From: a virus
Virus record (IMG/VR): IMGVR_UViG_3300037153_000606
Length of the DNA: 64,000 nt
Strand: one strand, 5' to 3'
How positions within the stretch are numbered: position 1 is the first letter of the stretch; each line of letters begins with the position of its first letter. The notes under the pieces were generated by a model. It saw nothing but the letters and a program-made list of their open reading frames with translations, had not been told where the DNA came from and searched no databases. Below, one piece after another: positions 52 through 59,274 of this stretch. A program made the translations under genes and the position numbers.

Positions 52-116
52 GACGTGGCTAGGCGTGGCCAGGCTAGGCGAGTCAGGGCCCGGCACGGCG
101 AGGCACGGCATGGCAG
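52..116 (+). ncRNA. Solo GGY-NN guide-like unit (12 pentamers + GGCAG end)
   Basis: GAC-GT GGC-TA GGC-GT GGC-CA GGC-TA GGC-GA GTC-AG GGC-CC GGC-AC GGC-GA GGC-AC GGC-AT GGCAG; same grammar as the 15703-17275 array. Confidence 0.6.
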
Positions 117-2677
117 GACAGGCTGGGCTGTCGCCGGTTCAGGCTTCCTGGATCGGCGACAACCCCGACGAGCCGACGTTGCACTGGCGCGCGCCGAATC
201 TGCGATACGAGGTTCACATCAAGAACTACATGCCCAGCCGGGACCTGCGTGAGGGGTACGGCGCGGTGCCGCACCAGTACGTGTCGTTGCATGAGAACGA
301 TCTGCACAACCCGCACGCGAAGCCTTCGATCCGCAGTGTCGAGAACGGCGAGCTGCGCGCCGTCGACCAGTTCGGCAACCGGCCCGGCAAGCCGCCTGCG
401 CATGTGATGCGGCACATCAACGACGCCATCGACCAGGTGCGCCAGCACGCCGACACACACGCCGACCTGTACGGCCAGCTCGCCGAGCAGCAGGACATCC
501 GTGACGACCTGGCCGCCGTGCCGCACCGGATGCAGCAGGAGGAGCGCGGCCGGGCGATGTTCGAGAACCTGCTGCGCAGCGCCGAGGAGCGTGGCGAGCA
601 CGAGGCGGCGCTCACCCCGGCGCACGAATGGGCCAGACTGTATCTGGCCGCCGGGGCGGGGACTCCAGCCACAGCCCTGGTGGCCCTCAGATCGTTGGGA
701 ATGGCCCACGAGGCCGCCCGAGGTGTATTGGACTACGCGACCTCGTCCTGGGCCGCCTGCGGCGTTCTGGTGTCCGGGGAACCGGACACCATCATCGACG
801 TCGACCCGATCGCCAAGACTGCCGTGCTCTATGACGGCCGGACGGTCGACACCGATCTGGTGCGGTATGCGGCCAGTCATCCGGAGGGCGAACACCTCCG
901 GCATCGACGGCGGCATTTCGCACCGTCCTACGCCCCGGCCTACGGGATGGCCTGGTGCCCGTGGTGTCTCGGCGACGGGTGCGAGCGGTGTGACGACAAC
1001 GGTCAGGTGCCCGCCGACTCCCAGGACGCCGCCGCCGGTGCCGATACGGGTATGGGCGGCACCGACGGCGGCACCACGGCGGCCCTGCAGGAACAACCCG
1101 ATTTCGGTGACGACCTCTCTGGCGGTGAGGAGGATTTCGTCGGTGATCCCGCCGACGGTTCGGGGAGCCAACAGGTCACCGGCATGTGGCACCAGGCCGA
1201 CTACGAGGTCGGCGGGTTGGCCGCCGCCGGTCCCGCGCCGTCGTTCCGGCGTCGCACGCCGCATTCCGAGTCGGATAATCCCGGGTCGACCGGATTCGCG
1301 ACCTCCGCCGACCCGACCAACTGGACCTCCACGGTCGCCTCGCCGTCCAATTTGACCAACTGGAACGCGTCGTTGCACACCGCCAAGCAGGGCGACGAGG
1401 TGACGCATGCCGGAGTGGCGTTGAAGGCCGCAGACACCGGCAGGGTGCTGATGATCCAAAGGTCTAACAAGGACGAGAAGGATCCGGCGCGCGGTACCTG
1501 GGAGTTCCCGGGTGGGAGCCTCGAAGACGGTGACTCCACCTCGTTGCACGGTGCCATCCGGGAGTTCGAGGAGGAGGTCGGGTCGAAGTTCCCTGAGGGT
1601 GGCCACCTGACCCACGTGCATCGCAACAAGAACTATGTGCTGCACACGGTGGTTGTGCCGGAAGAATCCTCGATCAACTTCGCGGACGGCCGGAAAACCG
1701 TCAACCCTGACGACCCGGACGGCGATGATCACGAGCAGTCGGCATGGTGGCAGATCGGCGACGCGCAGAAGAACCCGGCGTTGCGCCGCGAGGTGAAGAA
1801 AACCCCGTGGGACGAGATCAAGAAGGCGGCGAATGTGACCTCGGTCACATTGTCAGGGGGTAATGGGGTCGCCGGTACCTATAAGCCCGCAGGGCGTACA
1901 ACGGCCGAGCTGCGCAGCGACCAGGAGAAGGTCCTGGACCCGGACTGGAAGACCGGGTACACCCACGCGATCGACGACCAGCCCTATCAGCTGCCCGACT
2001 ACACGCCCGGTGAGGGCGGCTTCATGCGGGCCACTCGGTATGCCCAGGGGTACTCCGACGGGCGTGACGACCAGGGCCAGAAGTGGGGCGTCCTGCACGA
2101 CATCCCCGAACCCGCGTTGCCGTCCACCGACGGTGCCAGCGAGGACGCCGATGATATGAGTATCGGCGGCGACGTCCCGAGCGGGGCGCAGCCGTGGCAG
2201 GAGCCGGACGCCGGGTTGCCGGTGGACCGGGACGAGCCGTGGGGCTTCGAGCAGGGTTATCCACCGCAGGGCGCACACCTTGTGGACGCCGATGACACCT
2301 CCACCGCCTCCGACGACCTGTCCAACGTGCCGTCCAGCACGCCGGACATCACCGCCAACGCGGTGTTGGCGCAGTTCTGGAAGTCGGCCGGAGGCGCGGC
2401 ATTGCGCGCCGACGTGACCGAGGGCAAGAACTCCGGCCCGGCCGGTGAATCCACACCCGGCCGGGCCGATGACATCACCGACGGTGACATCGCCGCCACC
2501 GCGCGGGCGGTGTTGGCCAAGATGGGGGCCAAGGACTTCTCCTTCGCCGAGCAGCGCGAGCTGATCGACGAGGGGTTGACCAGCAACGCGCGGGCCCGCA
2601 ACTTCGACGATCTCGACCTCGCAGGCACGCATTACGCGCACATGGCCGACGAGCAGGACGAGGATCTCTGGTTGTGA
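110..2677 (+). CDS. Large multidomain protein with NUDIX hydrolase domain, probably head-associated
   Basis: Nudix box WEFPGGSLEDGDSTSLHGAIREFEEEVG; CPWCLGDGCERC Zn-finger; acidic linkers. ORF is open from 20, but 20-109 overlaps the repeat unit, so ATG 110 is preferred; start uncertain. Confidence 0.75.
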   Translation: MAGQAGLSPVQASWIGDNPDEPTLHWRAPNLRYEVHIKNYMPSRDLREGYGAVPHQYVSLHENDLHNPHAKPSIRSVENGELRAVDQFGNRPGKPPAHVMRHINDAIDQVRQHADTHADLYGQLAEQQDIRDDLAAVPHRMQQEERGRAMFENLLRSAEERGEHEAALTPAHEWARLYLAAGAGTPATALVALRSLGMAHEAARGVLDYATSSWAACGVLVSGEPDTIIDVDPIAKTAVLYDGRTVDTDLVRYAASHPEGEHLRHRRRHFAPSYAPAYGMAWCPWCLGDGCERCDDNGQVPADSQDAAAGADTGMGGTDGGTTAALQEQPDFGDDLSGGEEDFVGDPADGSGSQQVTGMWHQADYEVGGLAAAGPAPSFRRRTPHSESDNPGSTGFATSADPTNWTSTVASPSNLTNWNASLHTAKQGDEVTHAGVALKAADTGRVLMIQRSNKDEKDPARGTWEFPGGSLEDGDSTSLHGAIREFEEEVGSKFPEGGHLTHVHRNKNYVLHTVVVPEESSINFADGRKTVNPDDPDGDDHEQSAWWQIGDAQKNPALRREVKKTPWDEIKKAANVTSVTLSGGNGVAGTYKPAGRTTAELRSDQEKVLDPDWKTGYTHAIDDQPYQLPDYTPGEGGFMRATRYAQGYSDGRDDQGQKWGVLHDIPEPALPSTDGASEDADDMSIGGDVPSGAQPWQEPDAGLPVDRDEPWGFEQGYPPQGAHLVDADDTSTASDDLSNVPSSTPDITANAVLAQFWKSAGGAALRADVTEGKNSGPAGESTPGRADDITDGDIAATARAVLAKMGAKDFSFAEQRELIDEGLTSNARARNFDDLDLAGTHYAHMADEQDEDLWL

Positions 2678-3006
2678 CCCGCCCGCAGCGCTGGACGCTG
2701 CACCCGGACGGTGAGACCGGCGCGAGTTGGGCAGTAGCGCGGGGCAACCGGCCCGTCGCCGCCGGTCTCACCCAGGCGCAGGCGCAACAACTCGTGCAGT
2801 CCCGGATACGTCCCGGGGAACGGGTGTTCAGCGCCGACCGTGACGGCTATCTTACGGAGCTGACACCACGGTCTCGGAGGGGGCGACCGCATGCGACTGT
2901 TGATCGACCTGTGGGTGGGCCTGTTCGGGACCCGGACGACCCGCCGGAACGCAGCGGTTGGCCGCGCCACGATTGGCGTCGGCACGACTGGGCCCGCCAC
3001 ACTTGA
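2674..3006 (+). CDS. Hypothetical protein
   Basis: GTGA overlap with upstream stop; 110 aa. Confidence 0.5.
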   Translation: MTRPQRWTLHPDGETGASWAVARGNRPVAAGLTQAQAQQLVQSRIRPGERVFSADRDGYLTELTPRSRRGRPHATVDRPVGGPVRDPDDPPERSGWPRHDWRRHDWARHT

Positions 3007-3009
3007 GCG

Positions 3010-3363
3010 GTGAACCCCTTCGTCGCGGCGTTGCCCGACGCCCAGGTGATGATCCGCAACCTGGTTCGGGCCGGGTACGACGCCAGCATTTCGATCGTTC
3101 ATGACCTCTTCGATCCGGACGGACTGCAGTGCCCGATGCGCCGTATCCGCGTCCGGATCGGTTTCGCGCAGGTCGACCAGGTCGTGTTGGACTGTGATGC
3201 GGAAGCGTTCATCCCCGATCCCGGTTTGGTGGAGTGGGTGGCCCGCGAGGCCGTGATGGAGTGTCTTCGTCAATGGCCTGCCGAGCAGGTGTTCGGTAGT
3301 GGGTCTGATTGGTTGTGCAACGAACCCTCGGATCAGAGCAGATTGCCCACGAAAGTAGTGTGA
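3010..3363 (+). CDS. Hypothetical protein
   Basis: 117 aa, tight packing, protein-like composition. Confidence 0.6.
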   Translation: MNPFVAALPDAQVMIRNLVRAGYDASISIVHDLFDPDGLQCPMRRIRVRIGFAQVDQVVLDCDAEAFIPDPGLVEWVAREAVMECLRQWPAEQVFGSGSDWLCNEPSDQSRLPTKVV

Positions 3364-4007
3364 CCCAGCCGCCACCCATCACCGCCGTCGTCGGAGCGGA
3401 GCAGCCGACCGTCGCGGTGTTGCCCGGTCCGCAGCAGCAGGTCGTGGTGTTGCCCCGCCAGCAGGGCCCGGTCGCGGTGGTCGGCGGCCCGAGCGCGTTG
3501 CGCGCCACGCTGGCCAGGACCGGTTCCCCGTCGGTCACCGTCGGGGCCAGCCAGGGCATCGACACCGATGCGGTGCACTGGCGCGGGCCGTGGACGCCCG
3601 GCACCCAGTACAACCGCAACGACCTGGTGACCTACCAGGACAAGCTCTGGATCTGTGACACGCCGACGAACACGATCGGGTTCTCGACCGGCTACTTCAC
3701 CGAGATCGGCGCGATCCACACCGTGACCGGGACATTGCAGGCCGCCGACCCGAGCGACCCTGCCGACTTGGTCACGCTGCGCTACCTGCAGACCTCCGTG
3801 CCGGAGACGGTGCCGATCTCCTACCGGCACGTGCAGTCCACCCCGGCGGCAGTGTGGACGATCACCCACAACCTGGGGTTCCAGCCCAACGCCACGGTGG
3901 TCGACTCGGCGGGCACCGAGGTGATCGGCGACCTGGACTACGTGGACGACCACACCGTGCGGATCACCTTCTCGGCCGCCTTCGGCGGCGAGTGTTACCT
4001 CTCGTGA
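3360..4007 (+). CDS. Virion structural protein (fibre/collar-like)
   Basis: GTG 3360 overlaps upstream TGA; WRGPWTPGTQYNRNDLVTY motif and C-terminal WTITHNLG..P.VVDSAG..V motif typical of fibre-associated proteins. Confidence 0.7.
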   Translation: MTQPPPITAVVGAEQPTVAVLPGPQQQVVVLPRQQGPVAVVGGPSALRATLARTGSPSVTVGASQGIDTDAVHWRGPWTPGTQYNRNDLVTYQDKLWICDTPTNTIGFSTGYFTEIGAIHTVTGTLQAADPSDPADLVTLRYLQTSVPETVPISYRHVQSTPAAVWTITHNLGFQPNATVVDSAGTEVIGDLDYVDDHTVRITFSAAFGGECYLS

Positions 4008-9465: not shown

Positions 9466-12400
9466 ATGTTCCGCAAGTTTGCTTCTGCTGAAGTGTTGGC
9501 CGTTGCAAAAGGTGAGTCATTGAAAAAGGATGCTCATCGAGCGGTCTTTTCATTTGTACCTCGACCTGGGTTTCTCTATGTAAGGTCTAGAAGTATATCT
9601 AGTCGCTGCAACGACAACTACGATTTTTTCGGCGCGGACGAGATCGCCAAGTCCTACCGGACCTTCATCGGCAAGCCGGTGTTCGTCAACCACAACAACT
9701 CCGACCACCGCCGGGCCCGGGGGATGGTCATCGACGCGGTCCTGCACCGGGACCGCAACGCCGACGGGTCCCCGGATTTCTGGGTCGAAGCGCTCATGGA
9801 GGTCGACGCCGAGACCTACCCGAAACTCGCCAAGTCGATCCTGTCCGGCGAGATCGACCGCACCTCGATGGGATGCGACGTCGAGTTGTCCAAGTGTTCC
9901 TACTGCGGCAACGAGGCGACCTCGCCGTTGGAGTACTGCCAGCACATTCCCGGCAAGAAGGGCAAGCGGATCTACAAGATGCTTCCCGACGGACGCCGGG
10001 AAGGACAACTCGTCTTCGAGATCTGTTCTGGTTTGTCGTTCTTCGAGAACTCACTGCTGGTGGAGCCTCCGGCAGATCCGACGGCTTATTTCCTTGGGCA
10101 GCCGGTATTGGGACCTGGTTTAGAGCATCTCAGGCAGAAAGCAGCGAATCTGCAGGCCGTTCTGGAGGAACAGCCTGCCGCGCCACGCCATGACATGCCT
10201 AGCCGAGCCTCGACAAACCAAGCCCGGCCGTTGCAGCGTACGGCAGCGGCTGGTGACGACTGGCATGTCGGGATGGACCCTGAGCGCCGCCGCAAGGCCG
10301 AGGAGGCCGCAGGCAAGCTCTGGGAGGGGTTCCACCAGATCATGGATCCGGGGTCGACGCCCGCCTCACGCGTCTCCGACCGCAACATGCGGGTGATGAA
10401 CAACCTGCAGAACCTGGGATATCAGCCGCATCACATCAAGTTCGAGGACGACGAGGACGAAGGGCATCCGTACGCCCACATCCAGGGACCCAAGGGGTGG
10501 TACGGCGTCGACTACGGCGGCCCGCACATGGAGATCCGGCACCAGGCCACCGGCAACGAGTCCCACGACTTGATCAACTTGCAGCACTACGACAAGGAGA
10601 CCCGCGAGCAACACCGGATGCCCGGGTACGGACCGCACGAGGCCGAGGCGGACCTGCACCACTGGGTACACGGCGACCCGGAGGAGACTGGCGGGAGCGC
10701 CGAGTACCTGGAGCACAACGACCCGCGCATCAAGCGGTGGATCGGCCGCCACCAGGCCGCGTTGCAGGTCGAGGCGGTCACCCAGGAGCATGCCGAGGAC
10801 TACCTCAACGAGCACCCGATCAGCCCCACACACATCCTGAGCCGGGTCGAGCAGGCCGCCTCGGACCCGGCCACCCTGCACTCCGGGATGAAGTGGTACG
10901 ACGACGCACACGGGATGGCCAAGACCATGGCCAGCCACCACGGCGTGCCGTTGCAGCACGCGGCAGGTGCACTGGGGGTCTACTCCTCCAGCTCGGCCCC
11001 GGCCCCGAACTTCCACATGGCCTCGATCGCCCTGCATGCCGGAAAGGGGATCTGGGCCCGTGAGTCCGGCGGTTCCGCCGAACACGGTTACAAGGGATCC
11101 CCGATGGCGTCCGAGGCCGATGCCAAGAAGGTGGACCGGATCTTCTCCGGAGAGCACTACAACGACGTCATCGGTTCGTCCAAGACCAAGCACTACGCCC
11201 GGCTGATCCACGACCCGTCCAACGATCACGACGTGGTCATCGACCGGCACGCGGTGGCGGCGGCGATCGGTCATTACGGCAACTCCGGCGAGCCGTACAA
11301 CAACGTGGCCGGGCCGATGGAGAACGTCAACGCCAAGGGGGCGGGCAAGCTCTACGACCGGTTCTCCGACGCCTACCGGCAGGCCACCCACCACCTGAAC
11401 ACGTCGCCCGAGTACAGCCCTCTGCGCAAGCACATGGTCCGGTCCGGACTGCTCGGCGAGGGCGAGAAGATCAAGCCGCACCAGGTGCAGGCGCTGGCCT
11501 GGATCGCGCAGAAGGACATCAGCGACCAGCATGCCCGCAACGACATGACCAACGCCAACCAGCGCGCCATCGACGACTGGCAGAACCACTACACCAGCCG
11601 GTACGGGGTGGACGCGCACCACCCGGTGTCCGGCAAGGGGTTCTACGGCCAGGAGCCGACCCCGGCGAAAGCGGCGAGCATGCAGCGCCTCTCCTACGGG
11701 GAAACGAAAGCCCCTCAGGACGTCGACACGCTGCGCGACGAGCGGTGCGCGATCTGCGGTAACGACACGGCCTACGACGGGCGGGAGTGCCTGGTCTGCG
11801 GGTACATCGCGCCGCCCAAGGCGTTGGGTGACCCGGACGTCGACAAGGCCAAGCATCTGGACGAGTTGAAGCAGTCGGTCGACGACGCGCTCTCCGAGGT
11901 CGACCCGTCCCGGCCGGGTGCGGACTTCGACCCCGGCGACCTGGACGAGATCCAGGCCGAGATCGGTGAGGCGGGCACCCCGCCGATGGTGTGCCCGAAC
12001 TGCGACTCGGTCTTCGACCCGGCCGAGGAAGAGATCAATGCCGGTGATACCTGCCCGGACTGCGGTCAGGCCGAGGTGGCGGAGGCCGAGCCGGAGGAGG
12101 GCGAGGGAGACGCCCAGGATGTGGCCGAGGACGAGGCCACCGAGGGGCTGCCCGGCGAACAGGCCGAGGACCAGGACGTGCCCAGCGGGGACGAGGACGA
12201 AGACGCCGACGAGGACGAGGAAGACGAGGACGGGGAACCAGACGACGAAGACGAGGAGGACGAGGAAGACAAGCGCAGACGTCGTCCTGTTGCCAGCCGG
12301 TCCGCGACCTCGAAGTACCGACCACCATCGAAGGGGTACGACATGCAGAAGGCACTGGCGGCACTGGCCGAGCTGCAGGCCCTGGTCGAGCACCAGCAGC

Positions 12401-14907: not shown

Positions 14908-15738
14908 ATGCCTCGGCCGCCGTCTCCAACGACTTCGAAGACGTGTCAACGTGACGGTTGCGATAACCGATTCGAAGTCACCCAAGCCAAAGCTCAGAGG
15001 GATCGTCGATTTTGTTCGAAAGATTGCTCGAACAAAGCCACCGCGCTAATCCGTGGCGCTTCGTATCGAGCCAGTCATGGGTATAAGCCGCCAGTTTGTC
15101 CATGTGGTCGTTCTATCCAACCGAGACCGGGCCAGCGGTACGTCTATTCGAAGAAATATTGCGACATGGAGTGTCGTGCTCGATTTAGCCCGAGGCGACA
15201 ACCCAATCCTGAAAAGTGGGGTTCATACACGTGTCGCGTGTGTGGCACTGAATTCACCCGCCGGAAGAACTCTCGTAATGCCAAGATCTATTGCAGCCTT
15301 GCGTGTGCCAACAAGGAGACCAAGAAGAAGCATCACATCGTGTTGCGCGATGACGATGTTGTGTTCGACAGTGCCTGGGAGGCGTTCTTTTACGGCGCGT
15401 GCAAGATCGCGAAGATCCCGATCGAACGGTTCGACCGAGATCATGGTGTTGCCTACGACCCAGAATACCTGGATCGGTGGTACGCGCCAGACTTCTGGTT
15501 GCCCGACGTCCAGGCATGGGTCGGTCGCACCGGCGTTGCGATCGAAATCAAAGGTGTTGAAGACGACCGCGACGAAACCCGGTGGACCGCCTTCCGGTCG
15601 ACGGGAGTCGACCTGGTGGTGATGGACCGGTACCGGATGGAGAACCTGTCTGCACACTCGTTGTCCGACATCCTGCGAGTCGCCACGATGAGGGACAATC
15701 CCGCCTTGCCATGCCAAGCCGCGACACGCCTAGCCTAA
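14908..15738 (+). CDS. Free-standing endonuclease: Cys-rich zinc-finger repeats + PD-(D/E)XK domain
   Basis: Repeated CxxC..(F/Y)CS..C units; FDSAWEAFF..YAPDFWLP..IEIKG; lower-GC 5' half; 3' end runs into the array. Confidence 0.75.
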   Translation: MPRPPSPTTSKTCQRDGCDNRFEVTQAKAQRDRRFCSKDCSNKATALIRGASYRASHGYKPPVCPCGRSIQPRPGQRYVYSKKYCDMECRARFSPRRQPNPEKWGSYTCRVCGTEFTRRKNSRNAKIYCSLACANKETKKKHHIVLRDDDVVFDSAWEAFFYGACKIAKIPIERFDRDHGVAYDPEYLDRWYAPDFWLPDVQAWVGRTGVAIEIKGVEDDRDETRWTAFRSTGVDLVVMDRYRMENLSAHSLSDILRVATMRDNPALPCQAATRLA

Positions 15739-17275
15739 CCTTGCCACGCCGAACCAGGACTGCCGCGCCCTGCCAAGGGTTGCCCCGCCCAACCCAACCG
15801 GGCCTCGCCTGGCACGCCGAGACGAACCCGGCCAAGTACCGCCGTGCCATGCCGCACCTTGGCAGCCTCACCGAGCCATGCCGAGCCATGCCCATCCACG
15901 CCGTGCCCTGACCACCATGCCGTGCCTGCCGAGCCACGCCAAGCCTTGACCCGCCCTGACGGGCCGAGCCTTGCCCTGACTGCCGAACCACGCCAAGCCA
16001 CACCAAGACCCGACCTGCCAAGCCGAGCCGTGCCGAGCCATGCCTGCCCCGCCGCACCACGCCGCACCATGCCGCTGCCCTACCGTGCCGCACCCTGCCC
16101 GCCTTGCCCAGCCAAGACGTGCCACTCCAGGCCAAACCCTGCCCGCCTTGCCTCACCTCGCCGTGGCCCGCCCAACCGCACCGAGCCCCGCCAAGCCTGC
16201 GTCGCCCCGCCGTGACCCGTCACGCCGGGCCCAACCAAACCACGCCTGCCCGACCGAGCCCTGCGTTGCCCTGCCTGGACCAACCGCGCCTCGCCTGCCA
16301 TGCCCCACCTGGCCAGACCATGCCCAGCCGTGCCAGCCTGCCAAACCGAGCCCTACCGAGCCGTACCCAGACGAGCCAAGCCACACCGTGCCCGCCCAAC
16401 CGGGCCGCACCGGGACTCGCCGAGCCCTACCTTGCCTGCCTTGCCGAGCCGAGCCTCGCCAAGCATTGCCATGCCCAGCCGTGCCTGCCGAACCGAGCCC
16501 TACCGGGCCGAGCGGTGCCCTGCCTGGCCTAGCCGCGCCGCGACTGCCCTGCCTTGCCTCACCCAGCCTTGCCGAGCCGCACCAAGCCTTGCCGCGCCTG
16601 CCGTACCTCGCCCAGCCGAGCCCGGACGGACCTAGCCCCACCGCACGGTGCCCTGCCGAGCCATGACTGCCCTGCCCTGCCGCACCGAACCGAGACGTGC
16701 CGGACCACCCGGGCCAAGCCACGACTGCCGTGCCACACCCTGCCGACCATGCCCAACCCAGCCATGCCGAGGCTGCCCCGCCGTACCGGACCCGGCCGCA
16801 CCAAACCAAGCCATGCCTGCCGCGACCTGCGATGCCCTGCGGTACCAGGACATGCCGTGCCTGCCGAGCCGGGACCCGCCCCGCCATGACTAGCCATGAC
16901 CGGACTTGCCCCACCGAGCCTGCCCAGCCACGCCTTGCCCAGACTTGCCAGGCCTTGCCGTGCGCTGCCAGCCGAGCCAAGCCTTGGCTGCCTCGCCACG
17001 CCGAGCCCTGCCGAGCCCACCTAGCCTTGCCCTGCCACGGCTGCCCTGACATGACCCGCCGTGCGATGCCGAACCGGGCCGGACCATGCCTGCCTACCAG
17101 GCCACGCCCCGACTCGTCCCGCCTTGCCTTGCCTGCCGGGCCGAGCCTTGACTAGCCATGCCTAGCCACGCCATGCCGAGGCTGCCCAGCCATACTGCGC
17201 CGTGCCGAGACTTGCCCCGCGACGACCCGACATGCCTGCCCGACCTCGCCACGCCCACCTAGCCGTGACTGCCAC
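15703..17275 (-). repeat. GGY-NN pentamer array, ~29 units; putative guide-RNA array (VIPR-like)
   Basis: Plus strand reads RCC-NN in 5-nt register, broken about every 8-13 pentamers by a 4-nt step (gcct/gact/ggct/gccc); downstream of and co-oriented with a RAMP-like gene. Confidence 0.85.
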
Positions 17276-17282
17276 GAAGCGA

Positions 17283-17320
17283 ACCGCCGGGATCATGCCC
17301 CACCACATGATCCCGGCGGT
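17283..17320 (-). promoter_or_regulatory. Perfect 15-bp hairpin in the array leader
   Basis: ACCGCCGGGATCATG - 8 nt loop - CATGATCCCGGCGGT. Confidence 0.7.
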
Positions 17321-17363
17321 CCAAAGCCACCCATTCCCTCCCGCGAGACGAGTGGCCGGTCTG

Positions 17364-17819
17364 TCAGCTCGCCTGATGCTCGCCGTTCAGGTCGTCGAGC
17401 ACCATCCGGGTGAACTCATCCAAGTGACGGTACTGAGCTGCTAGCGCACGCCAGCGCCGTTCCGCCTCCTGCAGGATCAACCTCCGCTTGAGCGGGTCGA
17501 GCGCGATGTCCTCGACCGGTTCATAGTTCGGTTGGTGCGCCGTAGGGCGCGACACCGCGATGTACTTGCGGACCCGTTTCTCCTCGTCCGATGCATCCCG
17601 GTAGACCACCTTCACCGAGGTGATCAGCTTGTGGGCCTGGGTGAGCCGGTGTTTCTCCCCGGCCACCCGGTTGTCCCACTCGAAACGCGAGTACAGCGGG
17701 TGTTTCCTGCCGAGCGACTGGACGTCGGCCAACACCGCCCGAGGAGTCAGCTCGCCCTGTCGTTGGCGAACCTCCTCAAGCTGGCGAGCCAACTCCTCGT
17801 GAGCGGTGAAGGCGGTCAT
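17364..17819 (-). CDS. Accessory protein of the RAMP/array operon, function unknown
   Basis: 151 aa; starts 3 nt after RAMP-like gene stop; LTPRAVL..HPLYSRFEWDN..AGEKHRL.QA..LI. Confidence 0.8.
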   Translation of the reverse strand: MTAFTAHEELARQLEEVRQRQGELTPRAVLADVQSLGRKHPLYSRFEWDNRVAGEKHRLTQAHKLITSVKVVYRDASDEEKRVRKYIAVSRPTAHQPNYEPVEDIALDPLKRRLILQEAERRWRALAAQYRHLDEFTRMVLDDLNGEHQAS

Positions 17820-17822
17820 GGC

Positions 17823-18452
17823 TTAGTTGATGACCGTGATCTCGCGGGCCTGGTCGATCTCGAACGTCCCGTACTCGCCGTTCTTCTCCGGACGCCACTC
17901 ACCGACACCGACGGTGAGACCGGCGGCGGAGATGATCGAGAGCACCGAGTCGCGGGTGATCGCGGACTTGACGTACTGCACGGTCAGCTCGGAGGTCCAG
18001 TCCGGGAACTCGGCGCGGTAGCGCAGGTCGGTGCCACTGATGCCAACCGTCACCATGTCCTCGCGCATCTTCGGCTCGCCGACGATCGGGAAGAGCGCCT
18101 GGTTGCAGTGTTCGCTCATCACGCCACGGAAGAACAGGAACTGGCGCAGCTCGGTCATCCGGACCGACTTGCCGTACAGCCGGGCGGCGGACACCGTCGC
18201 GGCCTTGAACGCGACGGACGGGAAGCCGTAGCCGTCGGCGGTGCGGTACAGCGAGGACTCGAACTCGGCCTCGGGGTCGCGGGGTTCCTTGATGGTCTTG
18301 CGGCCCTGCTGGGTGTCCAGCATCTGGCGCTTGGCCTTCTCCGACCAGTTGTGCACGATCAGCGGCATGGTGCCGACGACCGGCACGAGCAACGTCTCGA
18401 CGTCGATCTTGGTGATGTCCAGTTGGGCTGGAGCGGCGGCTGCTGCGGGCAT
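17823..18452 (-). CDS. Stand-alone Cas7/RAMP-like RNA-binding protein (Vipr-like)
   Basis: 209 aa from ATG 18452 with AGGAGG RBS; V.GTMPLIVH first strand, FPSVAFKAA helix, C-terminal glycine loop GVGEWRPEKNGEYGTF; no other cas genes in the window. Confidence 0.75.
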   Translation of the reverse strand: MPAAAAAPAQLDITKIDVETLLVPVVGTMPLIVHNWSEKAKRQMLDTQQGRKTIKEPRDPEAEFESSLYRTADGYGFPSVAFKAATVSAARLYGKSVRMTELRQFLFFRGVMSEHCNQALFPIVGEPKMREDMVTVGISGTDLRYRAEFPDWTSELTVQYVKSAITRDSVLSIISAAGLTVGVGEWRPEKNGEYGTFEIDQAREITVIN

Positions 18453-33225: not shown

Positions 33226-33717
33226 ATGCCCAGTCCGAAGGTGCGGGTGGTCGGCAGCGGCTACTCGACGTTCACCTATGCCGGTCAGATCATCGCCTTC
33301 TTGGAGCAGGTCGACGACTCCGGACAGCGGGCTTTCTCCGACGCGGGCGCACCGTACCAGTTCATCCAGCCGATCGGGGCGATGCACCCGACCGAGATCG
33401 CCACCAGCCGGGTACTGCAGGGCGGCACCCTGAACCTGACCATCCGCGAGCTGTGGAACACCTACGTCTGGGAGCAGCTGGCCAACCTGACCGGCACCCG
33501 CAACATCGTCGACATCTTCAACCGGCTCGCCGCGCAGAACACCTATGTGACCTGCCAGATGGTGATCCGGCCGCCCACCGGCTCCGGCAAGCCGCGCGGC
33601 AAAAACTACCACAACTGCACCATCGTCGACATCGGCGACAACGACACGATCACCGTCGGTGCACTCGCGGTCACCAAGGGCATCGTGGTCGCTTACACGC
33701 ACACGAGCGCGCTATGA
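33226..33717 (+). CDS. Tail tube protein
   Basis: 163 aa directly after sheath. Confidence 0.8.
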   Translation: MPSPKVRVVGSGYSTFTYAGQIIAFLEQVDDSGQRAFSDAGAPYQFIQPIGAMHPTEIATSRVLQGGTLNLTIRELWNTYVWEQLANLTGTRNIVDIFNRLAAQNTYVTCQMVIRPPTGSGKPRGKNYHNCTIVDIGDNDTITVGALAVTKGIVVAYTHTSAL

Positions 33718-57298: not shown

Positions 57299-57622
57299 AT
57301 GTCGACGCTTGACTATGCCGCCGCGCGTGCCGTGGCGCGGGCGCGACTCCTCGAACGCGCGGTGCACGACTCGGGCCCCTGGCAGATCGAGATCGCCGGG
57401 ATCCGCGAGGACGCGGTCAAGGTCCGTACCCCGCACCGGGTGCTGTTCCTGGCCAATTTCTACTCCGTTCCCGACCCGGACGCCACGGTGGCGTGGCTGC
57501 TCTGCGATGGGCAGTTCCTGTCCTCCAAGGACATCCGGCTCGGCGACTCCGGGCCGTTCTCCATCGAGTGGTCCATCATCGGCCCGGATTCGCTGGAGCC
57601 CTCGTCACCGGCAGTCGCATGA
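57299..57622 (+). CDS. Hypothetical protein
   Basis: GAGGAGG RBS; ATGA overlap with helicase. Confidence 0.65.
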   Translation: MSTLDYAAARAVARARLLERAVHDSGPWQIEIAGIREDAVKVRTPHRVLFLANFYSVPDPDATVAWLLCDGQFLSSKDIRLGDSGPFSIEWSIIGPDSLEPSSPAVA

Positions 57623-59193
57623 CCGCATCACCGGCCGCCGCCGCCCGGCCGGTGATGGACAACGGGCGGCTCTTCCACTCCCCACTCGGCCTATTCGGCT
57701 TCCAGGCCGAGTGCGTGGCACGCGCCTACTACCAGGACGGGCTGCTCGCGGTCTGCGATACCGGGCTCGGCAAGACGATCATCTCGATGGCGCTGGCCGC
57801 GCAGCTGTTCCAGGACGACCAGGTCGACCTCGTCATCCACGTGGCGCAGAAGAACAAGATCGACAAGAGCGAGTTCCCGGCCGACTGGGCCCGGTTCAGC
57901 TCGCTGCGCACGCACGTCTACCACGGCACCAACCGGGGCAGGCGACTGGCCAAGGCGGGCACCCCGGACGTGCTGATCAGCACCTACGAGACGCTGCGCG
58001 AGGACCTGGTCATCTTCTCCGGCCGGTCCGGGCGGGCCCGCACCGACGGCATGCTGGTCGAGGTGCTCAAGCTGCGCACCGCACGGGTGCTGTGGATCTT
58101 CGACGAGATCAGCAAGCTGGGCAACCGGTCCTCCAAGCTGTACCGCGCCTTCGAGTACGTGCTCACCCAGCAGCGCAACCACGGCCTGCCGCCCCGGGTG
58201 CTGGGTCTCTCGGCTACCCCGATGTCCACCGACTACGAGCAGCCGTTCAACATCGGCCGGATCGTCTGGCCCGCCCGGATGCCGAGCGTCACCTACTTCG
58301 AGGACACCTACACCTACGGCCGCGACGACCACGGGCGGCTGCTGTACAAGCGCGGTGCCCGGGAGTGGTTCGCCGCCCAGTTCGAGCCGCTGATCTACCG
58401 CAAGCGGCGCACCGACCCGGACGTGGTCGACCAGATGCCCCGGCTGATGGAGAAGGTGCTCCCGGTCGACCTGCACCCGGAGCACCGTGCGCTCTACGAG
58501 GCCGTGGGACGCCTGTACGGCCCCGATCCCACCCCGAGGCAGCAGGACCTGCTGCTGATGGCCCAGCGGCTCACTGCGGGCCATCCCCGGGCACTGCTGC
58601 GCAGCGGCTCGGAACTGGCCAAGGCGGTGGTGGAGACGCTCGGCGCAGACCGGCTGCGAGCCGTCCCGTCGGCCAAGACGCTACGGCTGATCGAGCTGCT
58701 GTCCACACTGAAGGCGCAGGGCGACCCGGCGTTGGTGTTCTGCGCCTTCGCCGAGACCGTGCTGCCCGAGGTGGCCGCCGATCTGGTGTCCGCCGACCTG
58801 CGGGTGGGTATCTACACCGGAGGGCAGTCGTCCAGCTCGAACGAGGCCGCCAAGGCCGCGTTCAAGGCCGGAGAGCTGGACGTACTGCTGTCCTCGGACG
58901 CTGCGGCTACTGGGCTGAACTTGCCTCAGGCGGCCTACGTGATCGAATACGATGCCGCGTCCACGTTCGCCCTGCGAACACAGCGGTTCGGACGCGGGTT
59001 GCGTATCGACTCGGCCAAGTCCCATGTCTATGGCTTGACTATTGTGGCCCGCCGGACCGTCGAGGTCGGCCTGCTGCAGAGCATGCTCAAACGCAACGAC
59101 CTACAAGACGAGTTGCACGGCGATCGTGGTGCAGAAGGACATCTCGACGCCAAAGTGCGCCGAGATGTCTCCTTCGAGGCGTTGCGGAATTAG
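57619..59193 (+). CDS. SNF2-like SF2 helicase
   Basis: CDTGLGKT (I), FDEIS (II), SATP (III), GLNLPQAAYVIEYD (V), QRFGRGLRI (VI). Confidence 0.9.
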   Translation: MTASPAAAARPVMDNGRLFHSPLGLFGFQAECVARAYYQDGLLAVCDTGLGKTIISMALAAQLFQDDQVDLVIHVAQKNKIDKSEFPADWARFSSLRTHVYHGTNRGRRLAKAGTPDVLISTYETLREDLVIFSGRSGRARTDGMLVEVLKLRTARVLWIFDEISKLGNRSSKLYRAFEYVLTQQRNHGLPPRVLGLSATPMSTDYEQPFNIGRIVWPARMPSVTYFEDTYTYGRDDHGRLLYKRGAREWFAAQFEPLIYRKRRTDPDVVDQMPRLMEKVLPVDLHPEHRALYEAVGRLYGPDPTPRQQDLLLMAQRLTAGHPRALLRSGSELAKAVVETLGADRLRAVPSAKTLRLIELLSTLKAQGDPALVFCAFAETVLPEVAADLVSADLRVGIYTGGQSSSSNEAAKAAFKAGELDVLLSSDAAATGLNLPQAAYVIEYDAASTFALRTQRFGRGLRIDSAKSHVYGLTIVARRTVEVGLLQSMLKRNDLQDELHGDRGAEGHLDAKVRRDVSFEALRN

Positions 59194-59247
59194 CCTCGCC
59201 CTGCCAAGCCATGCCCCGCTGAGCCGCGCCGGGCCTAGCCATGCCGT
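59193..59247 (-). ncRNA. Solo GGY-NN guide-like unit (11 pentamers)
   Basis: gcctc gccct gccaa gccat gcccc gctga gccgc gccgg gccta gccat gccgt, directly at the helicase stop. Confidence 0.75.
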
Positions 59248-59274
59248 GCAGGAGCGAGTCTAGGCTCCGGACCC

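What the first reader, a model, noticed from the sequence alone, without database searches (positions are those of the whole stretch)
16487..16545. The code is readable: one unit spells the MazG motif EELGDVLWYAA when NN = codon positions 1-2
Seen: the plus-strand NN series is ga ga ct gg ga gt ct tg ta gc gc. Read as NNx codons this gives [ED][ED]LG[ED]VL[WC]YAA. Knowledge: EELGDVLWY is the signature of MazG-like nucleotide pyrophosphohydrolases. Inference: each unit specifies a gapped 30-40 bp target in which every third base, the wobble position, is skipped. Recognition would then ignore synonymous escape mutations, with the RNA antisense to the coding strand. This is the strongest internal evidence that the array holds targeting information.
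Basis: partly seen in the sequence, partly recalled or inferred. Interest (0 to 1): 0.95.

Follow-up and report, generated by a model that had tools for sequence, protein, structure and literature searches.

The report
VIPR guide RNA aimed at MazG

Summary

**What is there.** Window 16490-16544 holds 11 NN[G/A]CC pentamers between two TGCC four-mers. It is one unit of a 1.56-kb array (15701-17264).

**The locus.** A 209-aa protein lies next to the array (17823-18452, minus strand). Its family profile matches the solved "SUSP1 Vipr protein" (PDB 36pp, E=2.8e-28), and its model folds like Cas7. The locus is therefore a VIPR system (bioRxiv 10.64898/2026.04.26.720920). That paper reports GGY/NN guide RNAs that read DNA with a 1-nt skip at the wobble position.

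**The direct test.**
- The pattern GANGANCTNGGNGANGTNCTNTGNTANGCNGC has 38 exact hits in IMG/VR contigs and 19 in species genomes.
- The same dinucleotides in reversed order have 0 hits.
- All 57 hits are in frame as [DE]ELGDVLWYAA, with varying wobble bases.
- All 7 ORFs tested are Pfam MazG.

**A second guide.** Unit 16672-16725 hits SNF2 helicase motif I (LLAD[ED]VGTGKT) in 4 of 4 cases, all in frame.

**Negative results.** Five other guide patterns (four array units and one solo guide) gave no exact hit. The "TIR" unit gave only chance-level hits.

**Status.** This is a new member of a known kind, an uncultured soil actinophage-like contig with a large staggered array. Other first-stage notes on this genome had flagged the same array; none had been followed up.

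The parts
16490..16544 (-). MazG-directed guide unit (vrRNA): 11 pentamers. RNA sense is the minus strand, 5'-GUCGC GGCGC GGCUA GGCCA GGCAG GGCAC CGCUC GGCCC GGUAG GGCUC GGUUC-3'. It is bounded by TGCC (GGCA in RNA sense) at 16486-16489 and 16545-16548.
   Evidence: for the sequence and decoding. for the target matches; complementarity stops at both TGCC marks.
15701..17264 (-). Staggered VIPR guide array: 282 NN[G/A]CC pentamers and 39 off-length tokens (37 four-mers, 23 of them TGCC, plus two six-mers). Units are mostly 39-64 nt. There are 23 TGCC-bounded units, up to about 35 guides if other NGCC four-mers also end units.
   Evidence: There is no Rfam match. The same architecture occurs beside vipr homologues in IMG/VR loci and in cultured phages.
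16672..16725 (-). Second validated guide unit, with one degenerate 4-nt repeat (ACCC). Its NN series reads LLA[DE][DE]VGTG[KN]T, which is SNF2 helicase motif I (Walker A).
   Evidence: 4 exact IMG/VR hits; all in frame 0 of 370-761-aa ORFs. SNF2-rel_dom plus Helicase_C in the 3 ORFs tested.
17823..18452 (-). vipr gene: 209-aa minimal RAMP/Cas7-like protein with the G-loop GVGEWRPEKNGEYG.
   Evidence: the family profile hits PDB 36pp 'SUSP1 Vipr protein', E=2.8e-28, over nearly full length; single sequence, E=8.4e-6. AF2 pLDDT 94 and Foldseek top hits Cmr4/Csm3/type VII Cas7; phrog_4652; 4736 homologues, none named.
17364..17819 (-). Candidate vipr-accessory gene (vap): 151 aa. The N-terminal ~105 residues look winged-helix-like.
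   Evidence: homologues sit directly after vipr in 15 array loci; phrog_15946; model pLDDT 85; VIA Z 5-6 to FOX/Fur/MarR/PadR winged helices, which is a modest score. There is no Pfam, NCBIfam or PDB sequence hit.
17265..17363 (-). Structured 99-nt spacer between vap and the array, containing an 18-bp hairpin plus a second hairpin. It may be a terminator, leader or processing element.
   Evidence: MFE -59.7 kcal/mol, z = -5.7 against shuffles.
52..125 (+). Solo pentamer unit (NNGCC on the minus strand, so RNA sense would be plus), about 12 repeats.
10170..10235 (-). Solo pentamer unit, about 10-12 repeats, following a TGCC.
59190..59250 (-). Solo pentamer unit of 11 repeats, starting at the stop codon of the 566-aa gene 57493-59193.
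   Evidence: No exact 1-nt-skip target was found in metagenome contigs.

Best explanation
The stretch is one guide of a VIPR (Viral Interference Programmable Repeat) system carried by an uncultured soil phage of about 150 kb and 66% GC, with actinophage affinities.

The minus strand encodes, in order:
- vipr, a 209-aa minimal Cas7-like RAMP;
- a 151-aa accessory gene;
- a structured spacer;
- a 1.56-kb 'staggered' array of GGY-NN pentamers, cut into units by GGCA phase shifts.

By analogy with the characterised SUSP1 system, Vipr protomers polymerise along each unit. They clamp each GGY triplet and present the NN pairs. The NN pairs base-pair with one DNA strand while every third target base is skipped.

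For this unit the 22 read bases are codon positions 1-2 of [DE]ELGDVLWYAA, a conserved core motif of small MazG-type nucleotide pyrophosphohydrolases. The RNA is antisense to the coding strand. Its likely job is to bind and silence mazG genes on rival phages or mobile elements, whatever their synonymous codon choice.

Shown here: the anatomy, Vipr homology and fold, co-orientation of array and gene, exact wobble-phased matches to real MazG genes, and a second guide matching SNF2 helicases.

Inferred from the literature, not shown for this locus: transcription and processing of the units, RNP formation, and transcriptional silencing.
For: (1) Vipr identity. The family profile hits the solved SUSP1 Vipr, E=2.8e-28. 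The model folds like Cas7.

(2) Array-gene linkage. A scan for the pentamer pattern alone returned 120 viral loci, and about 60 of them gave a tblastn hit to Vipr. 47 loci carry a clear homologue (at least 120 aa aligned). In the 41 of these with a detected array, the array lies a median 104 nt from vipr, and all 46 such arrays have GGYNN on the vipr strand. Cultured phages Saal, Ecliptus, UmaThurman and LESphi2 show the same arrangement.

(3) Target test. There are 38 + 19 exact gap-1 matches against 0 for the reversed order. 57 of 57 are in codon phase, and 7 of 7 ORFs tested are Pfam MazG.

(4) Complementarity ends exactly at the two TGCC marks. The flanking guide dinucleotides do not match the target's flanking codons, apart from one position that agrees in about half the MazG targets.

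(5) A second guide gives 4 of 4 in-frame hits in SNF2 helicases.

(6) Across the whole array, plus-strand NN usage tracks codon position 1-2 usage of the phage's own genes (r=0.66). The reverse complement gives r=0.00, and positions 2-3 and 3-1 fit worse.

(7) No unit exceeds its shuffled controls against the 64-kb window itself; one 8-repeat unit reaches 81%, which equals its shuffle maximum. The VIPR papers likewise report no self-targeting.

(8) High-GC carriers of the exact target exist. One is a 39-kb GC-63% viral record in which mazG sits beside FtsK/SpoIIIE, ParA and ParB genes. Others are Actinoplanes, Paractinoplanes, Micromonospora and Saccharopolyspora genomes.

(9) The published mechanism was read.
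Against: - There are no RNA data for the array. The one soil metatranscriptome that holds part of the locus has only two 151-nt contigs inside vipr, and DNA carry-over cannot be excluded.
- Most exact viral hits come from contigs of 44-54% GC, which probably do not share a host with this 66% GC phage. The match may therefore reflect a very conserved motif rather than a particular rival.
- Only 2 of the 8 guide patterns scanned (7 array units and 1 solo guide) have convincing exact targets.
- No other guide hits the five complete target genomes above shuffles, so there is no convergence on one competitor.
- Only 64 kb of a roughly 150-kb genome could be checked for self-targets. Another first-stage note, unchecked, says the same genome has a MazG-like gene.
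- The paper reports experimental confirmation for the ribozyme-interspersed and single-vrRNA architectures but describes staggered arrays only from sequence. Processing at GGCA is therefore inferred.
Confidence: 0.87

Rival explanations
1. Self-regulation. The guide targets the phage's own mazG, or a gene acquired from it, to time its expression, rather than a rival's gene.
For: A first-stage note (unchecked) says the same genome encodes a MazG-like protein outside this window. Only 64 kb of about 150 kb could be examined. No competitor genome is hit by more than one guide.
Against: No unit exceeds its shuffled controls within the window. The VIPR papers report no self-targeting at 80% or more NN match in any set examined. 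No MazG motif occurs in the window in any of six frames.
Confidence: 0.07
2. Relic or unexpressed unit. The array evolves by duplication and drift, and this unit keeps an old match but is no longer transcribed, processed or loaded.
For: 9 of the unit's 11 triplets are GGY; the other two are degenerate (CGC, GUC). A strong hairpin lies between vap and the array. No RNA coverage of the array was seen, though this is uninformative for small repeats.
Against: A perfect 22 of 22 match confined exactly to the unit is not expected of a decaying relic. Internal degeneracy of repeats is described as frequent in functional vrRNAs.
Confidence: 0.05
3. Chance resemblance. With about 280 dinucleotides and two-fold degenerate decoding, some run will look like a known motif.
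For: The 'TIR' unit has only 2 hits, out of frame with any long ORF, which is chance level for 18 specified bases. Five other guide patterns have no exact hit.
Against: 57 exact hits against 0 for the reordered control. All hits are in phase and all lie in one protein family. A second unit behaves the same way. NN usage across the whole array looks like codon positions 1-2.
Confidence: 0.01

Closest known systems
VIPR systems (Vipr + vrRNA), type II exemplified by Escherichia phage SUSP1 and a Pseudomonas fulva prophage (bioRxiv 10.64898/2026.04.26.720920; 10.64898/2026.04.26.720927; 10.64898/2026.10.15.759431)
   Same: A roughly 200-aa minimal RAMP protein homologous to SUSP1 Vipr. Co-oriented GGY/NN pentamer guides of 9-16 repeats. 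A small accessory gene after vipr. Targets read with a 1-nt skip aligned to wobble positions. The guide lands on a catalytic or conserved motif, as reported for the satellite recombinase active site.
   Different: There is no conserved 3' tail between guides. Instead there is one uninterrupted 1.56-kb array punctuated by GGCA phase shifts. It holds about 23-35 guides against 4 in SUSP1. Vipr has only weak single-sequence similarity to the SUSP1 protein (E=8.4e-6, aligned over about 59 residues). The predicted targets (MazG, SNF2 helicase) are not among those published. There is no convergence on one satellite or prophage.
'Staggered' VIPR arrays with 1-nt overlapping vrRNAs (fig. S18 of the same preprint)
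   Same: Consecutive guides abut with a one-base register shift. In the window this shows as 4-nt GGCA tokens every 39-64 nt.
   Different: The preprint describes these from sequence and reports experimental confirmation only for two other architectures. Here two units match their targets exactly from one GGCA mark to the next, which supports those marks as guide boundaries. I could not determine which of the seven published types this locus belongs to.
Class 1 CRISPR-Cas Cas7 backbone (Csm3/Cmr4, type VII Cas7) with crRNA
   Same: RRM core, glycine-rich loop and thumb. Foldseek probability is 1.0 with TM about 0.5. One protomer binds each short RNA segment, with periodic interruption of base pairing.
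   Different: No CRISPR repeats or spacers, and no cas1, cas2 or other cas genes. The period is 5 nt with 2 read bases, rather than 6 nt with 5 read bases. The guides are hard-wired in a phage genome.

Membership tests
VIPR system | Vipr protein: minimal RAMP (RRM core, G-loop, thumb) homologous to the described Vipr | tested here: met
   The profile of 47 homologues hits PDB 36pp_D 'SUSP1 Vipr protein', E=2.8e-28, profile positions 14-196 against chain residues 1-189. Single sequence E=8.4e-6, with GVGEWRP aligned to GVGDWRP. AF2 pLDDT 94; top folds are Cmr4, Csm3 and type VII Cas7.
VIPR system | Adjacent non-coding tandem GGY/NN (YNNGG) pentamer repeats on the vipr strand | tested here: met
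   282 pentamers. The plus-strand triplets are GCC 173, ACC 52 and GAC 34; the first two classes (225) correspond to GGY on the RNA strand. The array starts 100 nt downstream of vap on the same strand. 46 of 46 arrays in related loci are co-oriented with vipr.
VIPR system | Individual guides of about 9-16 repeats | tested here: met
   Distances between four-mer marks are mostly 39-64 nt, which is 7-12 pentamers. This unit has 11 repeats.
VIPR system | Targets matched by NN with a 1-nt skip, the skip falling on the codon wobble position | tested here: met
   MazG unit: 57 of 57 exact hits in phase. SNF2 unit: 4 of 4. Gaps 0, 2 and 3 and shuffles give no match on the fetched target loci. The reversed-order control gives 0 hits.
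VIPR system | Accessory vap gene beside vipr | tested here: inconclusive
   A 151-aa gene follows vipr here and in 15 related loci. Its N-terminal half is weakly winged-helix-like (Z 5-6), in line with the DNA-binding vaps described. No sequence of a published vap was available for comparison.
VIPR system | vrRNA is transcribed, processed and bound by Vipr; the complex silences targets | not testable with these tools
   Only two 151-nt contigs of a soil metatranscriptome lie in vipr. There are no small-RNA data.
MazG nucleotide pyrophosphohydrolase (the target family) | Pfam PF03819 domain containing the matched motif | tested here: met
   7 of 7 ORFs score 30-40 bits against a cut-off of 22, and the motif lies inside the domain. 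PHROG 'MazG-like pyrophosphatase' for two high-GC carriers.
CRISPR-Cas | Repeat-spacer array and cas gene set | tested here: not met
   The tandem-repeat and Rfam scans found no CRISPR repeat. The neighbours are capsid, HNH and endolysin genes.

The most novel reading that the evidence does not exclude
This array may not be aimed at one rival. It could be a library of about 30 guides directed at near-invariant catalytic motifs of whole protein families carried by competing phages and mobile elements (MazG and SNF2 helicase shown). That would be family-level silencing: it works across very different genomes (exact targets from 44% to 71% GC and several phyla) and cannot be escaped without damaging the enzyme. 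Nearly all guides would be antisense to coding strands. The published natural targets are one satellite, one prophage locus, or other vipr genes.
Probability: 0.3. Interest if true: 0.6.

Novelty: new member of a known kind. Interest (0 to 1): 0.4.

Why it matters
The result shows that the VIPR wobble-skipping code, published from Escherichia and Pseudomonas systems, can be read directly in an uncultured high-GC soil phage. It also gives concrete, testable targets (MazG and the SNF2 helicase Walker A motif).

It adds sequence-level support for two points that the preprints leave open or do not report:
- GGCA phase shifts are real guide boundaries in 'staggered' arrays.
- An array can be strongly strand-biased, with guides antisense to coding strands.

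It also flags that cultivable SEA-PHAGES phages carry annotated-as-hypothetical vipr genes with arrays. These are Mycobacterium phage Saal and other mycobacteriophages, and Gordonia phages Ecliptus, ODay, UmaThurman and Pipp. They offer a tractable actinobacterial model.

The scan gains no new mechanism from this.

Tried and rejected
- **Coding reading of the array.** Long ORFs exist in several frames on both strands. GCC or GGC every 5 nt leaves almost no stop codons, so such ORFs are expected. No frame stays open throughout, and gene callers produce spurious 190-208-aa ORFs here.
- **Early ideas.** Curved or rigid DNA, a Rho-binding C-rich RNA, a TRAP-like ring binding site and a packaging site were all considered. 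I dropped them once the Vipr link appeared.
- **Rfam:** no family at E up to 1.
- **MazG gene or target in the window:** none.
- **Exact 1-nt-skip scans with no hit:** units 16603-16667, 16866-16920 and 15985-16044 in IMG/VR; solo unit 59190-59250 and unit 16343-16392 in metagenome contigs.
2 hits in near-identical contigs of 47% GC, in a 28-aa frame. This is chance level.
- **Other guides against the 38 MazG-target loci and five complete target genomes:** nothing above shuffles.
- **Own whole genome:** not held. Logan contigs carrying the locus gave no DNA, so the rest of the genome could not be checked for self-targets.
- **vap:** no Pfam, NCBIfam or PDB sequence hit and no Foldseek hit.
- **Published type classification:** the supplement held as text has no table of loci.
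- **RNA run X7:** it covers only parts of vipr and none of the array. Absence of array coverage in assembled contigs says nothing.

Full report
**1. Observation**

Window 16490-16544 reads gaacc gagcc ctacc gggcc gagcg gtgcc ctgcc tggcc tagcc gcgcc gcgac, with TGCC on either side.

The unit is part of a 1,564-nt tract (15701-17264). A dynamic-programming parse splits the tract into 282 NN[G/A]CC pentamers and 39 off-length tokens: 37 four-mers, 23 of them TGCC, plus two six-mers. Units are mostly 39-64 nt. NN entropy is 3.8 of 4 bits, while the triplet is GCC, ACC or GAC in 259 of 282 pentamers. TRF sees only fragments of the tract, and Rfam has nothing.

**2. What the locus is**

I scanned IMG/VR for GCC(NNGCC)5 alone.

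A tblastn of the window's neighbouring proteins against those loci was informative. The 209-aa minus-strand ORF 17823-18452 gave hits in about 60 of the 120 loci, and 47 carry a clear homologue (at least 120 aa aligned). The 151-aa ORF 17364-17819 follows it in 15 loci. In the 41 loci with both a clear homologue and a detected array, the median distance from array to gene is 104 nt. All 46 such arrays have GGYNN on the coding strand of the gene; 33 lie downstream and 13 upstream.

Both proteins are PHROGs of unknown function, with no Pfam or NCBIfam hit. The 209-aa family has 4,736 unnamed homologues.

A profile of 47 homologues hits one solved structure: PDB 36pp, 'SUSP1 Vipr protein', E=2.8e-28, over nearly the full length. 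The single sequence gives E=8.4e-6 through the G-loop. The AF2 model (pLDDT 94) is most similar to the Cas7 backbone proteins Cmr4, Csm3 and type VII Cas7.

That name led to three 2026 preprints on VIPR systems. They describe:
- a minimal phage-encoded RAMP, Vipr;
- guide RNAs (vrRNAs) of 9-16 GGY/NN repeats;
- DNA recognition in which only the NN bases pair and one target base is skipped per repeat, the skip falling on the codon wobble position;
- transcriptional silencing of rival mobile elements;
- seven types, including 'staggered arrays' whose vrRNAs overlap by 1 nt.

The window's array, read on the minus strand as (GGYNN)n with GGCA phase shifts, fits the staggered description.

**3. Test of the specific claim**

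With the guide written 5'-GGYNN-3' and the target 3'-xNN-5', the target strand read 5'->3' is exactly the plus-strand NN series followed by one free base.

- The pattern has 38 exact matches in IMG/VR and 19 in the one-genome-per-species collection.
- The same dinucleotides in reversed order have none in IMG/VR.
- All 57 matches are in codon phase and read [DE]ELGDVLWYAA, inside ORFs of 51-342 aa measured stop to stop, some truncated by locus ends.
- The ten skipped positions vary freely among hits, except the Trp codon.
- Seven of seven ORFs tested exceed Pfam's MazG cut-off.
- On the fetched target loci, gaps of 0, 2 or 3 nt and shuffled orders reach 15-17 of 22 bases, the same as noise.
- The dinucleotides of the neighbouring units do not match the codons flanking the target, apart from one position that agrees in about half the MazG targets. 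Complementarity therefore runs exactly from one TGCC to the next.

**4. Is the rest of the array like this?**

Unit 16672-16725 contains one degenerate 4-nt repeat and decodes to LLA[DE][DE]VGTG[KN]T. Its pattern has 4 exact IMG/VR hits. All are in frame in 370-761-aa ORFs, and the three tested carry SNF2-rel_dom plus Helicase_C. Three of the four come from complete viral genomes of about 63 kb and 63-65% GC.

Five other guide patterns (four array units and one solo guide) had no exact hit. The 'TIR' unit had only two chance-like hits. Exact matching is stricter than the 80% criterion used in the preprint, so this is a lower bound.

Plus-strand NN usage across the whole array correlates with codon position 1-2 usage in the phage's own genes (r=0.66; log-likelihood -765 against -782 for uniform). 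The reverse complement (r=0.00), positions 2-3 and 3-1, and bulk dinucleotides all fit worse. Most guides in this array therefore seem to be antisense to coding strands. 49 other arrays show no such uniform bias against this reference.

No unit exceeds its shuffled controls within the 64-kb window; one 8-repeat unit reaches 81%, equal to its shuffle maximum. No further guide hits the five complete target genomes above shuffles.

**5. Who carries the target?**

Most viral hits come from contigs of 44-54% GC and are unlikely to share a host with a 66% GC phage. High-GC carriers do exist:
- A 39-kb, 63% GC viral record in which the MazG-like gene lies beside FtsK/SpoIIIE-like, ParA-like and ParB-like genes. 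This looks like a plasmid-like or conjugative element.
- Actinoplanes (two genomes), Paractinoplanes, Micromonospora, Saccharopolyspora and an Actinomycetota MAG.

The contig itself is present in several soil metagenomes. One soil metatranscriptome holds two 151-nt pieces of vipr, which is at most a weak hint of expression.

**6. Other anatomy**

The accessory protein model (pLDDT 85) has an N-terminal half that resembles winged-helix DNA-binding domains at modest scores (Z 5-6). This is compatible with the DNA-binding vaps described in the preprint, but it is not proof.

The 99 nt between vap and the array fold into two strong hairpins (z=-5.7).

Three further short pentamer runs, in effect solo guides, lie at 52-125, 10170-10235 and 59190-59250. 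Another first-stage note reports a second ~550-nt array just upstream of the window.

**7. Verdict**

It coincides with a mechanism published in preprints from April to October 2026, so the kind is known.

This locus is a new member: an uncultured soil phage, one of the larger staggered arrays, and new predicted targets. The remaining uncertainty concerns expression and processing of this array, and which element is the natural victim.

Noticed in passing
window 52-125 (-), 10170-10235 (+), 59190-59250 (+): Three short isolated NNGCC pentamer runs (10-12 repeats) lie far from vipr. They resemble the 'solo vrRNAs' of the October 2026 preprint. The one at 59190 starts at the stop codon of a 566-aa gene. 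Its 1-nt-skip pattern has no exact hit in metagenome contigs and no self-target in the window.
   Followed up: partly
L121 (Mycobacterium phage Saal 36.6-36.8 kb), L122 (Gordonia phage Ecliptus), L123 (Gordonia phage UmaThurman), L124 (Pseudomonas phage LESphi2): Cultured, deposited phages carry vipr homologues annotated 'hypothetical protein', with GGYNN arrays beside them. In UmaThurman, the annotated CDS gp40 (33362-33685) lies entirely inside the array and is probably a false gene call. 27 mycobacteriophage records have the gene.
   Followed up: partly
window 14908-15738 (+): A 276-aa ORF sits between the capsid gene and the array. Its GC is lower than its surroundings, and it has Cys-rich motifs and a PHROG HNH-endonuclease hit (E=2e-15). 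It is possibly a homing endonuclease inserted next to the array.
   Followed up: no
window 15701-17264: Plus-strand NN usage mirrors codon position 1-2 usage (r=0.66) while the reverse complement does not (r=0.00). This implies a strong strand bias of targeting in this array. 49 other arrays show no consistent bias against the same reference.
   Followed up: partly
window 17265-17363 (-): The vap-array spacer folds into two hairpins (-59.7 kcal/mol, z=-5.7). One is an 18-bp perfect stem without a U-tract. Its role (terminator, leader or processing signal) is unknown.
   Followed up: partly
L102 (IMGVR_UViG contig, array 1961-3536): Another viral contig has an equally long TGCC-punctuated array (1,576 nt, 280 pentamers, 33 TGCC) beside a Vipr only 35% identical. 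Kilobase-scale staggered arrays are therefore not unique to this phage.
   Followed up: no
Logan contigs carrying this locus; runs X5 and X6: Gene callers place spurious 208-aa and 190-aa ORFs inside the array. Soil runs X5 and X6 contain contigs that match parts of the array and then run on into different pentamer sequence. This suggests related phages with different guide content.
   Followed up: no
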